Of a stretch of 64,000 bases of DNA, positions 2,373 through 62,169 are shown piece by piece. The DNA is taken from the NCBI GenBank assembly GCA_003707115.1, contig PPNB01000001.1:62001-126000 (forward strand). Direction: 5' to 3'. Both the position numbers and the translations under genes were made by a program. Within the stretch, counting starts at the first letter, position 1; the number at the start of each line of letters is the position of its first letter. A model generated the notes under the pieces. It did not search any database and was not told the DNA's origin. It worked only from the letters and a program-made list of their open reading frames with translations. The DNA is from Tortispora ganteri. Taxonomy: Eukaryota.

Positions 2373-3650
2373 TTATTGCTTTTTGTTACGTAAATCTTTA
2401 ATTGTTAAAGGGATTTGATCCAAAATGCTAGCATGGCCTGGCTTATAAGCGGATGTGTAAAGATTTTCTGTGGGGTGCGGGTGAAACATTGCTGGTTCAC
2501 GACATTCTGTGATCACACCAATACCAGGAGGATCAGTTAATCGGAATATGCCAAAATTAGGAGTTTTCTGAGGAGCACAAACTATGGCTATTGACTCAGG
2601 GAGCATCAGTTGGTAAGAATTATGCGTATGAAGGTCGACTGAAGACATAAAGCAGGTTTGCGTAGGATGAGTGTGTATCCAACCCAGAATAAACAGATCA
2701 TTTGAGTCGATAAACTGAAAAAGGCGTTCTTCGTCTTTTGTCTGGCAACTGTTTGGAGTATTATCCTGTTCGGGTATTACTAGATGAGTAACAAAGAATG
2801 CATTAAGGCTAAGCTTCCCGCAAAGTATGCCACAGGTCTCTAGTCCTCGGGAGGTGTTATTACTGGAAATGTCCAAAAATCTTTTATGAAGACACTCTGG
2901 AAGAAATACTGTTCTGAGAGGGTCCCCACGCTCAGTAAAGTTCTTTATCGGATGAGAAACGGTTTTCTTAGGAGAAGCAGGGCCGGAGTCAATAGGAGGG
3001 GTATACGGCTCTAAGTGAGAGACGGTGGCGGCTTTTGAAGGGAGAGGAGGAGATTTAGCTTGAACTGACAAGACTGATGTTGGAGGGGAAACAGATGACT
3101 GAGAAATGTTTACAGATGGGTAGTAATATGATTGAGGTGAAGGCGAGACCAGCGTCGATTGAGGAATCGAGGGTGGTTTATACGCAAGGTCTTTCATATA
3201 ATCAAAAACATCGTCTTTGTGTCGTTCAAATACATTTGAACGAGACAAAGAAGCCGGTTCATGATCCGCAGAGAGAGGGTGAAGCTGATGCTGGAATAGA
3301 GGCTGCAGAGCTTTTTGGTCGCCCTGCTGATGCTGCAATGACCTAGCTTGAAGTTGCTGGAGCACTTGGGGTTTAATTTGTTCAGCATACTTTAAAGCTG
3401 TGTCAGCGTTAGGTAGAAGAGACTTATATTGCGACTGAACAGATTTGAACTCTGGGTGACTAGGTAGGGAGTTGAGGATCAGATCAGTGTATCGGAGGTA
3501 GAGCAGATAGGCCTGAGAGTAGAGATTATCTAGGCGATATATATTTGCCTGCCGGAGAATTGCATCAGAAGATCTGAACCAGTACTTTATAGGAATAGAT
3601 CGGCTGAATTCATAGTTTAAAGCATTGGCGTTGAGTTCTTTTATGGACAT
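2373..3650 (-). CDS. AMSH/STAMBP-like JAMM deubiquitinase (USP8-dimer/MIT-like N-terminus)
   Basis: ETCGILCG and WIHTHPTQTCFMSSVDLHTH JAMM motif. Confidence 0.93.
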   Translation of the reverse strand: MSIKELNANALNYEFSRSIPIKYWFRSSDAILRQANIYRLDNLYSQAYLLYLRYTDLILNSLPSHPEFKSVQSQYKSLLPNADTALKYAEQIKPQVLQQLQARSLQHQQGDQKALQPLFQHQLHPLSADHEPASLSRSNVFERHKDDVFDYMKDLAYKPPSIPQSTLVSPSPQSYYYPSVNISQSSVSPPTSVLSVQAKSPPLPSKAATVSHLEPYTPPIDSGPASPKKTVSHPIKNFTERGDPLRTVFLPECLHKRFLDISSNNTSRGLETCGILCGKLSLNAFFVTHLVIPEQDNTPNSCQTKDEERLFQFIDSNDLFILGWIHTHPTQTCFMSSVDLHTHNSYQLMLPESIAIVCAPQKTPNFGIFRLTDPPGIGVITECREPAMFHPHPTENLYTSAYKPGHASILDQIPLTIKDLRNKKQ

Positions 3651-3721
3651 CAGCTAAGGTGCTTTGAGAAAAAAGTGGAGGGCAAAAGGTGGGGGAGGGT
3701 AGAGGGAACTTAGAAACAGAC

Positions 3722-4642
3722 ATGAAATTGAAGATAAGAAGTACTTCAGAAAACAAAGTAATTGATATTGAAGATGACTCTGATATAAGTAAATTAAAAG
3801 AGATTATAGGGTTTAAAAATATTGAGAGTATCAAGTTCGGGTACCCACTAAAGACGATTAAAATAGATAATGAAGGACAACTGCTTACTGATCTCGGGAT
3901 CAAGTCTGGTGAGACTTTGATCATCAATGGCAAGAGTACTGTGGTAAATTCTACTGAATCCAAACCAAAGTCTGTGACAGATTTAAATTTGTCTACATTA
4001 GAGCCTTATGTGAACTACGGTAATAAATATCTGACCATAAGGGTTATGAAAGATGACAATTCGTGCCTCTTCAATTCGATCAGCTATAATATATTGAAGA
4101 CATTACAGGACCCATATGAGTTGCGGGATCTTATTGCGTCGTATATAAAAAGTAACTCACTTGAGTATAATGAAGCTATTTTAGGCCGAGATGTCGATGA
4201 ATATTGTGCATGGATCAAGCAGGAAAATTCGTGGGGTGGCGCAATTGAGATATCAATACTTGCTAAGTACTTCAATATAACTATTCATTCTATTGACGTA
4301 CAAACCGGAAGAATAGACTCATTTGAACCTAATAGTTCTGAGTCTAATCCTGAAAAATTTTGCGTGATTGTCTATAGCGGTATTCACTATGACTCGATTG
4401 CAGCAACACCCTATTTGAACGCCCCTAATGATCTGGATACTACTGTATTCGATGTGAGCAGCGACTCTGATGTACTTGTCGAAACAAAAAAATTAGTAGA
4501 CAAATTAAGGGCTCAACATTATTATACTGATACATCACAATTTAACATCAAATGCGGTATTTGTGGACAAACATTCAAGGGGGAGAAATCAGCGGTCAAT
4601 CACGCTAATGCAACTGGTCATTATCGGTTCGATGAGAAGTAA
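3722..4642 (+). CDS. OTU1: OTU-family deubiquitinase Otu1/YOD1
   Basis: UBX-like N-terminus, DDNSCLF, WGGAIE, YSGIHYD, C-terminal C2H2 finger; first ATG at 3722. Confidence 0.93.
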   Translation: MKLKIRSTSENKVIDIEDDSDISKLKEIIGFKNIESIKFGYPLKTIKIDNEGQLLTDLGIKSGETLIINGKSTVVNSTESKPKSVTDLNLSTLEPYVNYGNKYLTIRVMKDDNSCLFNSISYNILKTLQDPYELRDLIASYIKSNSLEYNEAILGRDVDEYCAWIKQENSWGGAIEISILAKYFNITIHSIDVQTGRIDSFEPNSSESNPEKFCVIVYSGIHYDSIAATPYLNAPNDLDTTVFDVSSDSDVLVETKKLVDKLRAQHYYTDTSQFNIKCGICGQTFKGEKSAVNHANATGHYRFDEK

Positions 4643-26426: not shown

Positions 26427-27212
26427 ATGAAGAAAGAAACAGTTGATATTGCCGGAACCTTAGTGAACATTTACGAGCCTGATGAGTTCGATGACTCTGT
26501 AAATGTGTTCTTTTTGCTGCATGGACGAACCAGAAGCTCTAAGGACATGGAGCAATTCTGCGAAAGCATTTGCGCTTTAAGTAAAAAGAATGTATGTGTG
26601 ACATTCGATGCAGCCTATCATTGCACCCGACAAACTGATCCTATAAGGGTTGAGGATTGGAAAGGGGGAAACAAAAGGCATGCTTTCGATATGATATCGT
26701 GTGTCGACGACTCTGCAAGACAAGTCTCTATGTTCTACGACTATATAGATATGAGATATTCTGTTAATAAAAGTCATATAAAACACTATGTCATGGGGAT
26801 ATCGCTAGGTGGTCATACTGCCTATAGCATTCTGGCAAATGATTTAAGATTTGACGGAATATTCGTATTGATAGGTTGTCCTTCAATGGGCCAGTTGCTC
26901 GAAAGTAGAATCAAAAGAGAATCAGAAAGCGCGCAGGAACAATTGGAACTGTTTCCGAAGAAGCTAAGAGAATACATTCGCCTTAGGTGTGATCAAAAAA
27001 ACTCGAATATGACTATATCAGATAGGTTCATCAATATCTATCATGGTGATAGCGACACACTTGTACCATTTTCCTTCACAAGGGAGTGGCTTAATAGCAT
27101 TGATTTCGAGGACAAAGTGCAAGTAAATATATTCAGTGGCACTGGTCATAATGTTCCTGGCGTGATGAAAGAGTCGTTATTATCTGACATAAAGCATCAA
27201 TTACAATTATGA
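26427..27212 (+). CDS. Alpha/beta hydrolase
   Basis: FLLHGR, GISLGGH nucleophile elbow, HGDSDTLVP, GTGH. Confidence 0.85.
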   Translation: MKKETVDIAGTLVNIYEPDEFDDSVNVFFLLHGRTRSSKDMEQFCESICALSKKNVCVTFDAAYHCTRQTDPIRVEDWKGGNKRHAFDMISCVDDSARQVSMFYDYIDMRYSVNKSHIKHYVMGISLGGHTAYSILANDLRFDGIFVLIGCPSMGQLLESRIKRESESAQEQLELFPKKLREYIRLRCDQKNSNMTISDRFINIYHGDSDTLVPFSFTREWLNSIDFEDKVQVNIFSGTGHNVPGVMKESLLSDIKHQLQL

Positions 27213-32638: not shown

Positions 32639-33913
32639 CTAAAAAATCGAATAGAAAAAGGCACAATAAGTGGGAAAGATCATTCCAAGAATGGTAACTG
32701 ACACTATAGAGGCCATGCTAGTTTGCGAGTCAGACGTTGAGGTGTTATTGTCGACACTTTGAAACGCAGAAATTGCACCAATTTTTGCCTTAGTAAGAGC
32801 ATTTTTGTTAATCATTTTCGCACCATTATTAGGTTTGGTTTCGGAATTGGTATTGGTATGGGAATTAGTAGAGGATTTCGCATGATTTAACGGGCTGCAG
32901 CTTAGCACACTACCTTTAATGATACTTTTGTCGTGAAGATCATTCCAGAATTTGCAGTCAAATTCACTTTCCGAACTAATAGATACAGCTCCTCGTACAT
33001 CCTGTAAAACCGGGAACTGGTAGGTGCTGAACGAGCCCGAAATGTCAATAGATCCAGCTATGGTCTCAAGAGACGCAAAAGAGCCTAGATCTTGCAGTTT
33101 GGGATTCTTAGAAAAGTGTAGAACACCATCAAGATTTACCAAATGCGTGAAGTCAACAGTTCTAAGCTCTGGATTAGAGATGACAGAAAGTGAGCCAGCA
33201 ATTGTGGTCAGGTTGTTTAGATGCAAGTTGGAAAATGTATTCGAGACAAAAGCGGCAGACCCTTTTATAACATGCAATCTAGGTGCGTCAAAAGTGCCTA
33301 CTTCACGAAGTGTGATGTTGCCGGCCCAAACAAGGTTAGGCAATGATAATGTCAAGTTTTTGGCATTTGAAGACACGTCCATGCCTTCATTCACATAGGA
33401 TAATCCTAAGTTGATATGATGAAGATAACGATTATTGTTAATATAAAGAACGCCAATTTGCTGTAGATCAAGTCCTTTGAGGTTAAAGAGGGCGGTGTCC
33501 GAAATAATTAGTTCGTGACACTTATTAATACCATGATCAACGCGCAGAGTAGTAAGAGTGGGTAAAGTTACCCAGTCAATGCGATAAACGCGTTCAAGGA
33601 CGGGGAAACTTACAGACGCAAGACTGGTTAAAGCGTGTAATTTGAAAGTGCCGCCAATTGAATGCAGGTATCGACCGCCGATAGACCTAAGATTGGAATT
33701 ATTCTCAACTATTATATCACCTTCGATGACTTCAATGTCACCAAAATCAATAAGGGAGACAGTTGGACCAAAAACAATACTACCTGAAAGCTTGGAACAA
33801 GCTGTAAGTGCATCCAAGTCTTGGTGGCTGTTTACCTTGTTAACTGGTTCATCGCATCCTAATGCAGCAACAGCATTCGCTACGAATATGCTGGATAACA
33901 ATAAGAACTTCAT
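32639..33913 (-). CDS. Sps2/Ecm33-family GPI cell-wall protein (Sps2-like)
   Basis: Signal peptide, receptor-L-like repeats (LIISDTAL, INNNRYL), hydrophobic C-terminus. Confidence 0.85.
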   Translation of the reverse strand: MKFLLLSSIFVANAVAALGCDEPVNKVNSHQDLDALTACSKLSGSIVFGPTVSLIDFGDIEVIEGDIIVENNSNLRSIGGRYLHSIGGTFKLHALTSLASVSFPVLERVYRIDWVTLPTLTTLRVDHGINKCHELIISDTALFNLKGLDLQQIGVLYINNNRYLHHINLGLSYVNEGMDVSSNAKNLTLSLPNLVWAGNITLREVGTFDAPRLHVIKGSAAFVSNTFSNLHLNNLTTIAGSLSVISNPELRTVDFTHLVNLDGVLHFSKNPKLQDLGSFASLETIAGSIDISGSFSTYQFPVLQDVRGAVSISSESEFDCKFWNDLHDKSIIKGSVLSCSPLNHAKSSTNSHTNTNSETKPNNGAKMINKNALTKAKIGAISAFQSVDNNTSTSDSQTSMASIVSVTILGMIFPTYCAFFYSIF

Positions 33914-35108
33914 GGTTGAAAATGAGAAGCGGTAAAGCAATAAGATACAGTTGGTACTATGAAACCTCAAAGATGCAGTATAAGAGAGAAATTTGAAGGA
34001 AGGAAAATAAATGCATATGTACTCGGCTGAATGTGTGCGGTCATCGTACTATGCGCATGCTGAGCTGTATCCGGTTGCAGCCGTGCTATTGATACCACTA
34101 GCGTTGCTATATCAACTATGCCGACCATTTGTTACTAATAATAATACATATTTTGAGAACGCATGACAGGTACCGAGCGTGCAAACATTGCTTATATGGG
34201 CCCGATTAGTATGTTAAGGGGTACAGCTTTACTAATACTGCAGAGGACGAGGATAACGTGCGGTTCATGAGAATAAATATAGACATTCTACTTACTTGTG
34301 AAAGTGTGACAGACAAACAACCTTAGGGTCGAGGAAGGTCTAGACCAGAATAAAGTTTTCGAAGAGTTCCATAGCGATTGTTAGGTGGAATGTGAGGCAA
34401 AGAAATGTGAGACAAGTATCGGAAAAACAAAGCCAAATAAATATAAACATAACAAATCCAAATCGTGTAGGTATAATTCATATTACAACAGTTAGGTCTA
34501 TAGTGTCTGAGAGAGGAAGCAAATAGATAGCACAGCCCCGGTTGCTAATATCAGGAGAGTGGAGTAAATGTTCAAATAATAGGAGAGCGCCCAACCTTAA
34601 TGGCGACAGTTGCCTAGAAATTTAGAAGCGATATAAGGTTGTTATTTATTTCTTGCTCGAATTAGATAGATAATAGCCAATTAAAAGATGGAAAAACGGT
34701 AGAGTTTTGCAATAGAGTTCGCTCTAGAGGGAGGCTGCAGCCTAGATATACCGCTATTAACGAAGAGTGGTGAGAAATAAAGTTTAACCCGAGACATAAA
34801 AAGGCTAAGTTTGCATGCAAGTTTTGTTCTCGCCAATTCCTTTGCATATTTCCTTCGTTCGTCAAGAAAATAAATCAACCGGTCGATCAGATTAGTCCTG
34901 CTGAATAATATTATATTAATCAGTCGATTTCGAAAAAAAGTTCTTATTTTTCCGATATCGATACTTATTGGTTATCGTATAAATTCTCTGCTCTAATCGT
35001 TTAAAATTATATAATACGAGTACTCGCCGGTCAAGACTCTTTTCCGACTTCAAGCCTCGCCTCTATAAACAATCCATCTATCTATAATCCTTCTTTGCAT
35101 AATCTACA

Positions 35109-36329
35109 ATGAAGACTCAAGTTCTTTTTTCCACTTTACTTGCATTTTCTCGTTTCGCGTTCGCCGACGACGATGACGACATATGCAAGAATGCCACAGT
35201 GACCGCCAACTCACAGGCCGATCTCGATACGATCGCTGCTTGCGAAACTCTTACCGGTGATCTTGTTCTTGCTTCTACTTTTGTAACTGCTTCAATCAAT
35301 GGCATTCAAGCGATTGAAGGTGATCTAGATGTATCCCAGGCCGTCAACCTTACTTCCTTATCCGCCCCAAGCCTCCAAACTATTGGCGGTACCTTCCAGC
35401 TGGTCAATCTGACTGTGCTTAACTTACTTTCTTTCCCTCAACTCTCTGAGGTGGGCACAATCAACTGGATCACTCTTCCTAACTTATATTCTATTTCCTT
35501 CGCATCCGGCGTTCAGAAATGCGATAGCGTGCTCGTTGCTGACACTGCCTTGCGCTCTCTATCCGGAATTTCTTTGTCCAATGTTTCTGCTTTGAACATT
35601 AACAACAATAGACAGTTATCCGAACTTGTCGTCCAAGCTTCCTCTATCTCTGGACTTTGCGACATTTCTTTCAACGGTAAGGGTGTTGTCGCTTCTTTTC
35701 CTGAACTCATATGGGCCCGCAATCTTACTTTCCGTGATGTTGCCAACGTCTCCATTCCTTCCCTTGTCAAAGTTAACGAATCTCTGGGATTTATCTCTAA
35801 CTCTTTTGAGTCTATCTTTGCTCTTAATCTCACCGAGGTTGGCGGCTCTTTCGCTATTGTCAACAACGACGATTTGACCTCTCTTTCTTTCCCTGTTCTC
35901 AAAGAGGTCGGAGGTGGATTCCAGATTGCTAACAACTCTGCACTTGCCAACCTTTCCTCCTTCCCAGAACTTGAAACCATCGGAGGAGCAGTTGATCTGG
36001 TGGGTTCTTTCGAAGAAGCTGATTTTCCCAATCTTGATTTAGTTTCCGGCGGTGTCAAAGTTGAAACCGATCAAGATTTTGACTGTGATGGATGGACAGA
36101 GCTTAAGAACAACGGTGATGTTCAAGGTGACAGCTTTGCTTGCAGTGCCAAGTCTTCTTCTACTTCTGAAGCACTTGTACCTAGTGCTACCGGTAGTTCT
36201 TCTAGCACCTCTGCTAGCTCCAGCTCCAATTCCAAGAGCGCTGCTCCTAGATCTGTGGGCGGTGCGGGAATCCTTGAAGTGGGAATCGCTTCTGCGCTCG
36301 TCATCTTTGCTCTTCAAATGTTTTTGTAG
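35109..36329 (+). CDS. ECM33: Ecm33/Pst1-family GPI cell-wall protein
   Basis: Signal peptide, SQADLDTIAAC, INNNRQL, Ser-rich stalk, GPI signal. Confidence 0.88.
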   Translation: MKTQVLFSTLLAFSRFAFADDDDDICKNATVTANSQADLDTIAACETLTGDLVLASTFVTASINGIQAIEGDLDVSQAVNLTSLSAPSLQTIGGTFQLVNLTVLNLLSFPQLSEVGTINWITLPNLYSISFASGVQKCDSVLVADTALRSLSGISLSNVSALNINNNRQLSELVVQASSISGLCDISFNGKGVVASFPELIWARNLTFRDVANVSIPSLVKVNESLGFISNSFESIFALNLTEVGGSFAIVNNDDLTSLSFPVLKEVGGGFQIANNSALANLSSFPELETIGGAVDLVGSFEEADFPNLDLVSGGVKVETDQDFDCDGWTELKNNGDVQGDSFACSAKSSSTSEALVPSATGSSSSTSASSSSNSKSAAPRSVGGAGILEVGIASALVIFALQMFL

Positions 36330-36418
36330 TTACCTTTTCGTTTAACTAAGATTAGCTTAGTTTAGTAAGTTTATTTATACTTTTAATTGTTCTGCTACTC
36401 GTAATAAATTGCAGTTTA

Positions 36419-37237
36419 TTAGGTATACAGTTTATTTCGCGACGCATACTCGACTATAGATTGCAATGTCCGTTTCTTAGCTTCAACAATATTATTGCAT
36501 GCAATGTATTTTCGGATATCGGTGCTGGATATGGGGCGATTATCAGGTCCTAATTCCACGGGCGGCTTCAACACGATCTGGGAGGCCTGCAAAGGAGTGA
36601 TAATGCCTTGTTGCGTCCAGGCGGCCACCATTGATTCCATCTCTGCAATTGAAGAGAAGCTATTAGTATCAGTAGCACGAGCAAATGTAATTAATTGATT
36701 TTTAGAGTTCAGCAAAGGCTCGAGTGCGCAGTGAGTAGGAATATTGTAATACTTCGGATCTACAATTCTGATGAGGGTATCCCAGCCGACTATGTAGCTC
36801 TGGTTGGTGACGTTAATGCTCTGCAGGGCTATGGCTTTGTCAACAAACCTTGGAGTATTGGCAATAGCTATTGCAACTGGCGATTTATACGAATCATGAA
36901 CAAATTTAGCAAACAGAAGCAACATTTCGAGACGGTGAAGGTGCGATTCTGACGCCGCTACTTTGTCAGCGTTAGATAATGAATACATCAGCAACACATT
37001 CGACGGAGAGTCTGCTACTGCGCTAGCTATGCAATTTAGATGTGCAAAATGAGGAGGGTTATAACTTGAATCAAGAATACATATTCTTTTTGTCGTTTCG
37101 AAGTTATTGGTGGTCGCTATTATAGAGATTTTGCCATTGCACTCAAGGAATCTTCCCAAAGCTTGTTTGAGATTTGATTTATACATATCACTTAAATTTT
37201 CATCGACTTTCTCGATAGCAATAGGATCAATTTCCAT
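36419..37237 (-). CDS. POF1: Pof1-like nicotinamide-nucleotide adenylyltransferase (alternative start 37186)
   Basis: LDSSYNPPHFAH, SNADK, VGWDTLIRIVDPKYY, ISSTDIR. Confidence 0.85.
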   Translation of the reverse strand: MEIDPIAIEKVDENLSDMYKSNLKQALGRFLECNGKISIIATTNNFETTKRICILDSSYNPPHFAHLNCIASAVADSPSNVLLMYSLSNADKVAASESHLHRLEMLLLFAKFVHDSYKSPVAIAIANTPRFVDKAIALQSINVTNQSYIVGWDTLIRIVDPKYYNIPTHCALEPLLNSKNQLITFARATDTNSFSSIAEMESMVAAWTQQGIITPLQASQIVLKPPVELGPDNRPISSTDIRKYIACNNIVEAKKRTLQSIVEYASRNKLYT

Positions 37238-38356
37238 GTCAATAAAGAGAATTTGCACTCACAGGTAAGTTGGCGTAGTGCTAGAGATAAGTTGGTTAAC
37301 ATCCCACTTTCTTCATTCATTTAAAGATTAAACAACTGGTTCTTTACATAAAGTTCAACTAAAGAGTTTTTCCCTCTAGTTTTCTGCGGTACTAACTGAC
37401 GCAGTGGTGCTTTCCATGCAGACGAAAGTCTTGCAGTTTGGATGCTCAAAGTCCTGCCTGCTTACAAGGATGCGTCGGTGTCTAGATCGCGTGATCCTGA
37501 AGTATGGGATCAAGCTGATATAGTCGTTGATGTAAGTGGGCAGTATGATGGTAAAAGACTTTTTGATCATCATCAGAGAGGATTTAACGAAGTCCTAGAG
37601 CCTTTTACTACCAAATTAAGCTCAGCAGGCCTTATTTATAAGCATTTCGGACGCGAAGTAATCCAACAATTGTTGTCCAACCATGGTGGAAAGCAATTGT
37701 CTACCTCTGATATGAACGTCCTTTATAATCGTATTTACGAACATTTTATCCAGGCCCTCGACGCTAATGACAATGGTATAAATGTATACCCGGAAGAAGT
37801 TAAACCTCTTATCCCTACGTCCGCCATCACCTTACCAGGAATTGTGAGCTCTCTGAACCCCGCGTGGAATGAAGATCAGAGTGATGCTGCTCAGAATGCA
37901 ATGTTTTCTCAAGCTTCTGAGTTAATGGGAAAGGCATTTGAATCGCGTGCAGTGTACTATGGACTTGCCTGGCTTCCAGCTAGATCGCTGGTCAAGGAGG
38001 CCTTGCAAGCAGCTGCAGCGTCGTCCGCTCCAGCTATCTTGCAACTTTCTAAGGCGATGCCCTGGAAAGAACACTTGTTCGATCTCGAACAGGAATTAGC
38101 TCCTGAAATTAAACCATTATATGTTGTTTATCCTGATAGTGGTGGTTCTTGGAGAGTACAAGCGGTCCCTGCCGGCCCTGACACCTTTGAGAGTCGTAAG
38201 GCGCTTCCAGAGCCCTGGCGAGGAGTACGCGACGACGATTTGTCTAGGCTTACCGGTGTCCAAGGTTGCATCTTTGTTCATGCTAGTGGATTTATTGGTG
38301 GTGCTAAGACTAATGAAGGCGCGCTAAAATTGGCTACAATGGCTGTCGACATGTAA
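37236..38356 (+). CDS. MYG1: MYG1 exonuclease family; exons 37236-37264 and 37405-38356
   Basis: Intron 37265-37404 (GTAAGT..TACTAAC..CAG) gives MSIKRICTHSGAFHADESLAVWML; FDHHQ, LSSAGLIYKHFG, FVHASGFIGG. Confidence 0.93.
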
Positions 38357-38478
38357 TACACGAGCTTTGATGTCTAAAGTACCTTTTTCACTGGTGTTGT
38401 CGCGTCAATGACACAGACTCGCTTTTCTCTACCGCTCATAATAAAATTTTATTTTGCTATCTTTAGGTCAGTTATGAT

Positions 38479-38859
38479 TTACTTCTTAACAAATAAATTG
38501 TCAAGCTCCAAACGTTCCGCAGCTTCCTTCTCGGTTTGGAGTATGTTCTTTCTCAAATACGGAATATCGGTAGCATCAGTTGTACGTTCATTAGGTGGCA
38601 GGATGTGCTGAGTGATACCACACTGATGAGCGCGAATTTGCCGAAACTGTCTTTTTGAAGCTTCATCACTAGGCAAACGGTGAATTGCTCTTTGCATTTC
38701 TGGAGTTTCCTCGATTATGATATCGTGGAATCGAAGACCCATATTGCGGTATCCGCTCAAACGCACATAGACTCTAGCTAACGGCTTAAAAATAGCGGAC
38801 AATGCGGGCGAATTGCGAATGAAATTCGCAATTTTTACGGTTTGCGTATAGGTCATCAT
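38479..38859 (-). CDS. QCR7: Cytochrome bc1 complex subunit 7
   Basis: SGYRNMGLRFHDIIIEE, RAHQ, D.PYL motifs. Confidence 0.9.
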   Translation of the reverse strand: MMTYTQTVKIANFIRNSPALSAIFKPLARVYVRLSGYRNMGLRFHDIIIEETPEMQRAIHRLPSDEASKRQFRQIRAHQCGITQHILPPNERTTDATDIPYLRKNILQTEKEAAERLELDNLFVKK

Positions 38860-55527: not shown

Positions 55528-55585
55528 TACCCTAATCCTTTAGAATCTAATACCCTAAAAGGTTGCTAAGTGAATACCAGTCACG
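55528..55585 (+). promoter_or_regulatory. Ribosomal-protein promoter motifs: two TACCCTAA (Tbf1/Homol-E-like) and CAGTCACG (Homol-D-like)
   Basis: ACCCTAA at 55529 and 55552; CAGTCACG 55578-55585, 80 nt before the RPS25 ATG. Confidence 0.55.
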
Positions 55586-55664
55586 TTGGGAGGCGAGCTT
55601 TGGGACTCATACACCTATTATACTATCCTGCTCAATCACTGTTTCCCTCAGACAACAATTCAGT

Positions 55665-55988
55665 ATGGCCAAAGCCCCACAAACAACAAAGGCTGCCAAG
55701 TTAGCCGCTGCCCAGAGCTCCTCCAAGAAGAGCAAGAAGAAATGGTCCAAAGGAAAAGTTAAGGACAAAGCGCAACATACTCCTCTTCTTGACCAGACTC
55801 TTTACGATCGTCTTATCAAGGATGCCAGCACCTCTAAATTGGTTACTGTCTCTGTACTCGTCGATCGTCTTAAAATTAATGGTTCTCTTGCCCGTCGCGC
55901 CCTTCGTGATCTCGAGGCACAGGGAATCATTCGTCCTGTCATTAACCACAGCAAGCAACAGACCTACACTCGTGCTTCCGCTGAGTAG
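55665..55988 (+). CDS. RPS25: 40S ribosomal protein eS25
   Basis: [31 protein letters not shown]; intronless. Confidence 0.96.
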
Positions 55989-59032: not shown

Positions 59033-59791
59033 ATGGTTGTAGAGATTTCTAAACGCGAACAGCCTAAGACTATCGTATTGTTTGATGTTGACGGCACACT
59101 TACTCCTGCTCGGCTGACTATTGAGCCTGAAGTGAAGGAAACACTGCAAAAACTACGCGAGAAGGTCGTAATAGGATACGTAGGCGGCTCGGATTTTGCT
59201 AAGCAAGAGGAACAGCTCGGAAAAACGTTGCTAGATGATTTCGACTACTGTTTTAGCGAGAATGGACTTACAGCCTACAAGGCTGGAAAGAAGATGGCAT
59301 CTCAGAGTTTCATTGGATGGCTAGGACAGGAGAAGTACCAAGCGCTCGCTAAATTCATCTTGCGTTATATCGCTGACATCGAGCAACCTGTAATGACTGG
59401 AACATTTATCGAGTTCCGCAACGGTATGATCAACGTTAGTCCTGTAGGACGCAACGCGTCGGTTGAGCAGCGAAACGAGTTTGAAGCCTACGACAAGGTT
59501 CACAAAATTAGAGCCAAACTTGTAGAAGCATTGAAGGAGAAGTTCCCCGATTATGGACTGACTTACTCAATTGGAGGCCAGATTTCATTTGACGTGTTCC
59601 CTACCGGATGGGACAAGACTTATTGTTTGAGACATCTTGAGCCTGAAGGTTTCACACAAATTCATTTTTTCGGTGACAAGTGTTTCGAAGGAGGCAACGA
59701 CTGGGAAATCTATAATGATCCTAGGACGATTGGTCATTCTGTTAAATCACCTCAAGATACCGTAAGAATCCTGAAAGAGCTGTTTTTTTAG
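59033..59791 (+). CDS. SEC53: Phosphomannomutase
   Basis: [38 protein letters not shown]. Confidence 0.96.

Positions 59792-60751: not shown

Positions 60752-62169
<1,418 letters not shown>

What the first reader, a model, noticed from the sequence alone, without database searches (positions are those of the whole stretch)
37186..37404. Divergent genes POF1 and MYG1 have interlocked start codons in a single CATG: no intergenic DNA
MYG1 exon 1 begins at ATG 37236-37238 (plus) and supplies the conserved ICTHSG.FHADE motif after splicing. The first in-frame ATG of POF1 is 37237-37235 (minus). Both read from the palindrome CATG at 37235-37238. Each promoter and 5'-UTR would then lie inside the other gene. 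The MYG1 intron (140 nt, over twice the typical length here) sits where a POF1 promoter would be needed. Even with the next POF1 ATG (37186) the gap is only 49 nt. The MYG1 frame also stays open upstream (..LRFDLYISLKFSSTFSIAIGSIS-M), so a non-AUG extension is possible. Inference: overlapping 5' ends with transcriptional interference coupling an NAD/nucleotide enzyme and an RNA exonuclease.
Basis: partly seen in the sequence, partly recalled or inferred. Interest (0 to 1): 0.7.

Follow-up and report, generated by a model that had tools for sequence, protein, structure and literature searches.

The report
Two yeast genes sharing start codons
In a compact-genome yeast, an NAD-synthesis gene and an RNA-trimming gene point away from each other and probably begin on the same four letters (CATG), so each must be switched on from inside the other; the two genes have been neighbours across distant yeast lineages, but the overlap looks like a by-product of genome compaction rather than a proven switch.

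Summary
Observation confirmed. In this Tortispora yeast, MYG1 (ATG 37236, 140-nt intron) and a POF1-type NMNAT (first in-frame ATG 37237, minus strand) share CATG, a 2-nt coding overlap.

Is the first ATG used? For: the 16 codons up to the second ATG (37186) score as coding above all 4,133 non-coding control windows and all 3,000 shuffles, and AlphaFold models them confidently. Against: ATG 37186 matches the ancestral start (82 of 116 homologues). I put use of 37237 at about 70%, as a lineage-specific 17-residue extension.

Either way the promoters must lie inside transcribed DNA. That is common here: 6 of 98 divergent pairs have gaps of 50 nt or less.

New result: POF1 and MYG1 are also neighbours in T. 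caseinolytica, 5 of 5 Lipomycetales species and S. pombe (consecutive accessions or names; orientation unseen), but in 0 of 80 other fungal loci.

Not supported: a non-AUG MYG1 extension and an unusually long intron. Transcriptional interference is untested; no RNA run was listed.

The scan has noted CATG-sharing pairs in two other fungi. Verdict: new variant of a known kind; interest 0.45.

The parts
36419..37237 (-). POF1-type NMNAT gene, long form (272 aa) from the first in-frame ATG; T/HXXH motif HFAH at residues 63-66, SXXXXR motif at 237-242
   Evidence: PF01467, 21.1 bits against cut-off 21; NadD/NMNAT fold
37187..37237 (-). 17-codon acidic N-terminal extension of POF1 (Met1-Asp17), rare in homologues; strongly coding-like
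   Evidence: coding score; homologues; pLDDT 85 and 93 for residues 1-10 and 11-20
37184..37186 (-). Second in-frame ATG (Met18), at the position where most homologues start
   Evidence: median 12.5 residues before the conserved Phe in 116 homologues; 12 from this ATG, 29 from the first
37192..37203 (-). Out-of-frame 3-codon ORF between the two POF1 ATGs, weak context
   Evidence: (8th percentile of confident starts)
37235..37238 (.). Shared CATG: MYG1 ATG 37236-38 (+), POF1 ATG 37237-35 (-)
37236..37264 (+). MYG1 coding exon 1 (29 nt)
   Evidence: same start in T. caseinolytica ODV92151.1
37265..37404 (+). MYG1 intron, 140 nt; likely place of the POF1 start site and core promoter on the other strand (inferred). 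No Rfam match, no unusual fold
   Evidence: z -0.44
37405..38356 (+). MYG1 exon 2, with the DHH motif
   Evidence: PF03690, E 1e-119
37192..37320 (-). Out-of-frame upstream ORF from ATG 37320 (42 codons) or 37302 (36 codons) that runs across the first POF1 ATG; POF1 transcripts starting above about 37302 would translate poorly (inferred)
37177..37187 (.). TATA-like stretch inside POF1 codons 17-21 (TATACATA on + at 37180, TATAAAT on - at 37183); candidate MYG1 core promoter, weak, may be chance
   Evidence: no significance test passed
37319..37325 (-). TTTAAAT in the MYG1 intron; candidate POF1 core promoter element, weak, may be chance
35109..36329 (+). ECM33/SPS2-family gene convergent with POF1; this neighbourhood is conserved in other yeasts
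   Evidence: 8 of 80 loci

Best explanation
POF1 and MYG1 are an old neighbouring pair that compaction has squeezed together in Tortispora. POF1 gained a 17-residue acidic N-terminal extension upstream of its ancestral start (now Met18), up to the point where its ATG interlocks with MYG1's, so the two coding regions overlap by 2 nt. One open-chromatin region spanning POF1's first codons, MYG1 exon 1 and the intron serves both genes. MYG1 is started from within POF1's first codons. POF1 is started between 37238 and about 37300, in MYG1 exon 1 or the 5' part of the intron, below the out-of-frame ATGs. The 5' ends of the two mRNAs therefore overlap by some tens of bases. Both are low-level housekeeping genes that tolerate the occasional collision; the overlap is tolerated packing, not a dedicated switch. 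Shown: the sequence anatomy, the coding signal, the homologue start positions, the adjacency elsewhere and the short gaps genome-wide. Inferred: which ATG is used (about 0.7 for 37237), the start sites, the promoter positions and the absence of regulation.
For: Coding score of the 16 codons is 9.7 bits (order-3 periodic model trained on other parts of the contig). It is reached by 0 of 4,133 stop-free non-coding windows, 0 of 192 frames antisense to the 60 nt before other starts (maximum 6.9) and 0 of 3,000 base shuffles (1 of 3,000 at order 1). Only the POF1 frame scores high. A simpler codon model gave 1 of 1,765. AlphaFold pLDDT is 85 and 93 over residues 1-20 although only 2-19 of 79 alignment rows cover residues 4-17. 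The first ATG has the better context (36th against 14th percentile of 80 starts) and an out-of-frame ATG lies between the two. Compaction: 6 of 98 divergent pairs have gaps of 50 nt or less and 15 of 98 have 100 nt or less; both partners carry Pfam domains in 8 of those 15; 7 of 99 convergent pairs overlap. Adjacency elsewhere.
Against: 82 of 116 homologues have 16 or fewer residues before the conserved Phe, as the second ATG gives; only 20 have 24 or more. The Lipomycetales proteins start at the second-ATG length, apart from one longer L. starkeyi model. No other divergent pair in 656 kb has a negative gap between single-exon first ATGs (0 of 98); among 19 intron-split candidates the only other negative gap is a false intron call. 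The 9.7-bit score also exceeds all 82 real first-16-codon stretches, so it is extreme under both models. There is no control for the AlphaFold confidence. T. caseinolytica's POF1 is annotated only as a 73-aa C-terminal piece, so conservation of the extension is unknown.
Confidence: 0.55

Rival explanations
1. POF1 starts only at 37186. The CATG is chance, and the genes are an ordinary ultra-close divergent pair with 49 nt between start codons and very short 5' UTRs, like several other pairs in this genome.
For: The second ATG sits at the ancestral start position. Gaps of 38-49 nt occur in 5 other pairs of 98, including Nse1-like/GDSL-lipase at 38 nt with domains starting near both ATGs. 15% of starts have C at -1. 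In bacteria, long divergent overlaps were all judged mispredicted starts (PMC2478687, abstract).
Against: It leaves the frame-specific coding signal unexplained (0 of 4,133, 0 of 192, 0 of 3,000). It needs a 5' UTR under 17 nt or leaky scanning past the ATG at 37203. The second ATG has the weaker context.
Confidence: 0.25
2. The overlap is a regulatory device. Alternative POF1 start sites choose between a long upstream-ORF-laden transcript (above 37302, poorly translated and interfering with MYG1), a Met1 form and a Met18 form, so that NMN/NAD handling and RNA 3' trimming are expressed reciprocally or in a coupled way. This would also explain the ancient adjacency.
For: Upstream ORFs from 37320 and 37302 straddle the first ATG. 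Adjacency is kept in Tortispora, 5 of 5 Lipomycetales species and S. pombe. Long undecoded isoforms and interference are documented in budding yeast (PMC9917990, passages). Conserved divergent fungal pairs are more often functionally related (PMC2871058, passages).
Against: The pair is apart in 0 of 80 other fungal loci. The S. pombe names (.03 and .04c) imply tail-to-tail orientation by the naming convention (recalled, not checked), which would argue against a conserved shared promoter. Short gaps in this genome join unrelated genes. The same review reports that 5'-overlapping human genes show no negative expression correlation.
Confidence: 0.13
3. The stretch is kept open for MYG1: a non-AUG start upstream of 37236 adds a mitochondrial presequence, and the POF1 ATG at 37237 is incidental.
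For: The frame is open for 57 codons with 16 near-cognate codons. Myg1 works in nucleus and mitochondria (PMC6582341, passages). This MYG1 lacks the basic N-terminal cluster seen in 97 of 115 homologues.
Against: The open length is ordinary (13% of 990 controls). The coding score is negative on this strand and high on the POF1 strand. Short N-termini also occur in 11 of 115 homologues.
Confidence: 0.05

Closest known systems
Head-to-head (5'-overlapping) protein-coding gene pairs of eukaryotes, e.g. human INO80E/HIRIP3 (PMC11890862, abstract; review PMC9917990, passages)
   Same: Oppositely oriented genes whose 5' transcript ends overlap, each promoter inside the partner's transcription unit; interference or RNA duplexes possible.
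   Different: There the overlap comes from alternative long 5' UTR isoforms and was shown by experiment. Here the coding starts themselves interlock, so the overlap is obligatory if ATG 37237 is used, and no transcript data exist.
Short divergent intergenic regions with bidirectional promoters in yeasts (PMC3128071, first part and Table 1; PMC2871058, passages)
   Same: Old, conserved divergent pairs tend to have short spacers.
   Different: The reported lower limit for old divergent regions is 78-255 bp in 11 yeasts (17 and 27 bp for young regions in two species). This pair has -2 or 49 nt, and 6 of 98 pairs in this contig have 50 nt or less.
Short start-start overlaps of bacterial genes (10.64898/2026.09.10.750558, abstract; E. 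coli nnr/queG as noted in earlier scan finding e1-039127, unchecked)
   Same: Overlap of a few bases at the start codons; described as evolutionarily labile, with little functional association beyond proximity.
   Different: Eukaryotic cap-dependent scanning needs a 5' UTR inside the partner gene, and here one partner has a first intron 29 nt after its ATG.
S. cerevisiae Pof1 (YCL047C) / S. pombe SPAC694.03 and Myg1 (YER156C / SPAC694.04c)
   Same: Same protein families, catalytic motifs intact; POF1 convergent with an ECM33/SPS2 gene as in other yeasts.
   Different: Saccharomyces-like loci L030 and L032 have no MYG1 beside POF1. The Tortispora POF1 has an extra acidic N-terminus, and its MYG1 lacks the basic N-terminal cluster.

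Membership tests
Pof1-type NMNAT | Nucleotidyltransferase (CTP_transf_like / NadD) fold | tested here: met
   PF01467 at 21.1 bits, cut-off 21; model at pLDDT 93 matches NadD/NMNAT structures, E 2e-8
Pof1-type NMNAT | T/HXXH and SXXXXR motifs (PMC13191266, passages) | tested here: met
   HFAH at 63-66 and SSTDIR at 237-242
Pof1-type NMNAT | Closest relatives are Pof1/YCL047C proteins; neighbour of an ECM33/SPS2 gene | tested here: met
   Hit P0137 is named POF1-like/YCL047C; ECM33-family gene convergent in 8 of 80 loci. Its place in the tree is unresolved (long branch)
Pof1-type NMNAT | NMN adenylyltransferase activity | not testable with these tools
   needs an enzyme assay
MYG1 exonuclease (UPF0160) | PF03690 domain with DHH motif and N-terminal THxG..HADE | tested here: met
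   E 1e-119; motifs present in the spliced product; DHH definition from PMC6582341
MYG1 exonuclease (UPF0160) | Dual nuclear and mitochondrial targeting signals | tested here: inconclusive
   Basic N-terminal cluster of 97 of 115 homologues is absent; upstream non-AUG extension unsupported
Head-to-head overlapping gene pair | Two real, intact genes on opposite strands, divergent | tested here: met
   each single copy in the genome
Head-to-head overlapping gene pair | Both interlocked ATGs are the used starts | tested here: inconclusive
   MYG1 start supported by the orthologue. POF1 37237 favoured by coding signal and model, disfavoured by homologue lengths
Head-to-head overlapping gene pair | Overlapping 5' transcript ends shown by RNA data | not testable with these tools
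   needs cap mapping or long reads
Transcriptional-interference switch | Transcription of one gene lowers the other in cis | not testable with these tools
   needs expression data or perturbation
Conserved divergent (bidirectional-promoter) gene pair of fungi | Adjacency conserved across distant species | tested here: met
   Consecutive accessions in T. caseinolytica and 5 of 5 Lipomycetales species, consecutive systematic names in S. pombe; absent in 80 of 80 metagenome loci
Conserved divergent (bidirectional-promoter) gene pair of fungi | Divergent orientation conserved | not testable with these tools
   No DNA of those genomes was available; the S. pombe names suggest tail-to-tail (naming convention recalled)

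The most novel reading that the evidence does not exclude
POF1 and MYG1 have stayed neighbours since before the split of fission and budding yeasts because their expression is coupled, and in Tortispora this became an obligatory zero-spacer overlap. Start-site choice inside the MYG1 intron and exon 1 then toggles between an upstream-ORF-silenced POF1 transcript that represses MYG1 and translated Met1/Met18 forms, linking NMN/NAD salvage to Myg1-dependent RNA 3' processing.
Probability: 0.12. Interest if true: 0.72.

Novelty: new variant of a known kind. Interest (0 to 1): 0.45.

Why it matters
A published survey of 11 yeasts put the minimal space for a promoter between old divergent genes at roughly 80-255 bp. 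If ATG 37237 is used, this pair has no spacer at all, and the same contig holds a tail of 16-50 nt gaps. That makes Tortispora a convenient free-living yeast for asking how RNA polymerase II starts from inside coding DNA on both strands. It would also be a dated case of a protein N-terminus growing into a promoter. The retained POF1-MYG1 adjacency in three distant yeast groups is a testable hint of a link between two poorly understood enzymes. Practically, the arrangement seems to defeat annotation: the T. caseinolytica POF1 is on record as a 73-aa fragment.

Tried and rejected
RNA evidence: no RNA holder was listed, so no reads could be laid; this is no evidence either way.

Orientation was sought in supplements without result: the PMC6393241 file was too large to read, and PMC7849388 gave no hit in 4 files searched, with 1 file not searched. 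Those unseen files may hold S. pombe start sites for the pair.

The exact POF1 sequences (long and short form) are not in the protein collection. No solved structure matched by sequence. The single-sequence fold was uninformative (pLDDT 46). The maximum-likelihood tree did not finish, and the FastTree version leaves the query on a long, unresolved branch, so it was not used for orthology.

No Rfam family in 36300-38500, and the intron folds no better than shuffles. The promoter-motif search in 39 short divergent gaps gave only weak enrichments (TCCCA p 0.006, uncorrected); its copies at 37154 and 37302 are not counted as evidence. A donor-like GTGAGT on the minus strand was rejected because it is the reverse of the conserved Thr-His codons of MYG1 and the POF1 frame closes 7 codons above the first ATG.

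'Long intron because it houses a promoter' was tested on 19 candidate introns and not supported. No complex prediction was sent, because this report does not claim that the proteins bind.

Literature: no held paper names both YCL047C and YER156C; Tortispora plus intergenic gave 3 papers, seen as a listing only; neither gene appears in the text or 6 supplements of PMC2871058; the scan's own notes had nothing on MYG1/POF1.

Full report
1. What is in the sequence. The window comes from a 9.6-Mb yeast assembly whose MYG1 is 94% identical to that of Tortispora caseinolytica, so I treat it as a Tortispora species. Every coordinate of the finding holds. CATG at 37235-38 carries the MYG1 ATG on + and the first in-frame ATG of a POF1-like ORF on -, so the two coding regions share the letters AT. 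MYG1 has a 29-nt first exon and a 140-nt intron (37265-37404), and splicing restores ICTHSGAFHADE. The annotated T. caseinolytica protein starts at the same Met and has the same length, 326 aa. The POF1 frame has a second ATG at 37186, an out-of-frame ATG at 37203 between the two, and closes 7 codons above the first ATG. Both genes are single copy.

2. The two proteins. MYG1 matches PF03690 at E 1e-119. The minus-strand protein just passes PF01467. It has 740 relatives at E 0.001 or better, among them proteins named POF1-like/YCL047C. It keeps both motifs described for Pof1 (PMC13191266, passages), and its model matches NadD/NMNAT structures. An ECM33/SPS2-family gene lies convergent with POF1 here and in 8 of 80 fungal loci.

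3. Which POF1 start: evidence against the first ATG. Of 145 homologues aligned, 116 began with Met and aligned at both anchors. They have a median of 12.5 residues before the conserved Phe; 82 have 16 or fewer and 20 have 24 or more. The second ATG gives 12 and the first 29. The Lipomycetales proteins are of the short kind, apart from one longer L. starkeyi model. Met18 is therefore the ancestral start, and residues 1-17, if made, are a lineage-specific addition.

4. Which POF1 start: evidence for the first ATG. The 16 codons between the ATGs behave like coding DNA. A periodic Markov model trained on C1 beyond 256 kb scores them 9.7 bits. None of 4,133 stop-free non-coding windows reaches that, nor any of 192 frames antisense to the 60 nt before other starts (maximum 6.9). 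None of 3,000 base shuffles does at orders 2-4 (1 of 3,000 at order 1), and the other five frames score 1 or below. A plain codon model gave 1 of 1,765. The score is also above all 82 held-out real first-16-codon stretches and 98% of interior windows, so it is extreme under both models but far less so under the coding one. Start context mildly favours the first ATG (36th against 14th percentile of 80 starts, in-sample). Weighing a low prior for overlaps against a likelihood ratio of some tens, I put use of ATG 37237 at about 0.7 (inference).

5. Genome context. In 656 kb of contig C1 (of 792 kb; 340 ORFs of 150 aa or more), 6 of 98 divergent pairs have first-ATG gaps of 50 nt or less, 15 have 100 or less, and none is negative (genes with a split first exon, this pair included, are mis-measured by that method). 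Both partners carry Pfam domains in 8 of the 15 pairs (29 of 30 proteins scanned). In the 38-, 71- and 96-nt pairs the domains begin close to both ATGs, while the 16-nt pair may be a start mis-call. Seven of 99 convergent pairs overlap. A survey of 11 yeasts found lower limits of 78-255 bp for old divergent regions (PMC3128071, first part and Table 1). A 49-nt gap would thus be ordinary for this genome though short for yeasts, and a 2-nt overlap is the extreme of the tail.

6. Side claims. The intron is about twice the commonest size but not an outlier: 9 of 17 candidates with short first exons are 47-80 nt and 5 exceed 140 (crude motif calls, at least one false). Intron length does not track gap size: a 47-nt intron goes with a 39-nt gap, and 147-178-nt introns with gaps of 153-308 nt. 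The open MYG1 frame upstream is ordinary (13% of 990 controls reach 57 codons) and scores as non-coding. This MYG1 lacks the basic N-terminal cluster found in 97 of 115 homologues, though 11 of 115 are similarly short.

7. Conservation of the neighbourhood. POF1 and MYG1 have consecutive protein accessions in T. caseinolytica (ODV92151/2) and in 5 of 5 Lipomycetales species tested: L. arxii KAK9467395/6, Myxozyma KAK7208569/70, Limtongia KAK9451818/9, Dipodascopsis uninucleata KAK9456100/1 and L. tetrasporus KAK9248637/8. In S. pombe, MYG1 is SPAC694.04c and SPAC694.03 is an NMN adenylyltransferase gene (PMC11980565, passage) that a database name calls 'POF1 homolog C694.03'. Accessions show adjacency, not orientation; the S. 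pombe names imply tail-to-tail by a convention I recall and could not check. In 80 metagenome loci (the best 80 of 327; 56 with at least 1 kb upstream by my count) MYG1 was never beside POF1. The T. caseinolytica POF1 is annotated as a 73-aa C-terminal piece, 92% identical; whether this is a misannotation or a broken gene is open.

8. How it most likely works (inferred). POF1 mRNA must start above 37237. Out-of-frame ATGs at 37302 and 37320 open reading frames that run across the first ATG, so productive starts should lie at about 37240-37300, in MYG1 exon 1 or the start of the intron. MYG1 mRNA must start inside POF1's first codons. TATA-like stretches exist at 37177-87 and 37319-25. In yeasts branching as early as Yarrowia the start lies about 30 bp from TATA (PMC7849388, passages), which would fit, but such stretches arise easily by chance. 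The simplest reading is an old neighbouring pair compressed until one N-terminus grew into the spacer, served by one shared open region, with tolerated collisions (0.55). Rivals: only Met18 is used (0.25); a regulated interference or isoform switch (0.13); a non-AUG MYG1 extension (0.05).

9. Known kinds and novelty. 5'-overlapping gene pairs are known in animals (PMC11890862, abstract; PMC9917990, passages), short overlaps in bacteria (10.64898/2026.09.10.750558 and PMC2478687, abstracts), and conserved close divergent pairs in fungi (PMC2871058, passages). This scan has noted CATG-sharing pairs in two other fungi and in phages (unchecked notes). I found no held paper on this pair. It is a new variant of a known kind: probably real, rare, with an unexpected old adjacency, and without evidence yet for regulation. 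Interest 0.45.

Noticed in passing
window 36419-38356 and database records: POF1 and MYG1 are adjacent in T. caseinolytica, 5 of 5 Lipomycetales species and S. pombe (consecutive accessions or names), but in 0 of 80 other fungal loci; orientation unknown.
   Followed up: partly
G000 C1 1-656000: A tail of very short divergent gaps (16-50 nt in 6 of 98 pairs, 100 nt or less in 15), below the published lower limit for old divergent regions in 11 yeasts; 7 of 99 convergent pairs overlap at their 3' ends.
   Followed up: partly
window 2373-4642: Two deubiquitinase-family genes head to head, 71 nt apart: a JAB/USP8-dimer (AMSH-like, name recalled) gene and an OTU1 gene, with domains starting at residues 2 and 1.
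   Followed up: partly
P0125 (ODV92152.1): T. caseinolytica POF1 is annotated as only the last 73 residues, starting at an internal Met; likely misannotation, or a broken gene.
   Followed up: partly
window 37236-37264: MYG1 lacks the basic, NLS-like N-terminal cluster present in 97 of 115 homologues.
   Followed up: partly
window 32639-36329; L025-L032: Two divergent ECM33/SPS2-family paralogues; the POF1-ECM33/SPS2 convergent neighbourhood recurs in 8 of 80 loci.
   Followed up: partly
window 55551-55988: An ORF that I recognise from memory as RPS25 lies 17 kb from MYG1; I recall that S. pombe SPAC694.05c, next to MYG1, is also an rps25 gene. Possible older microsynteny; both names recalled and untested.
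   Followed up: no
window 27207-27212, 59788-59791, 61396-61411: Three convergent gene pairs in the window overlap at their stop codons by 6, 4 and 16 nt.
   Followed up: partly
G000 C1 about 521600-521800: Another intron-split gene (47-nt first intron) starts 39 nt from a divergent neighbour.
   Followed up: no
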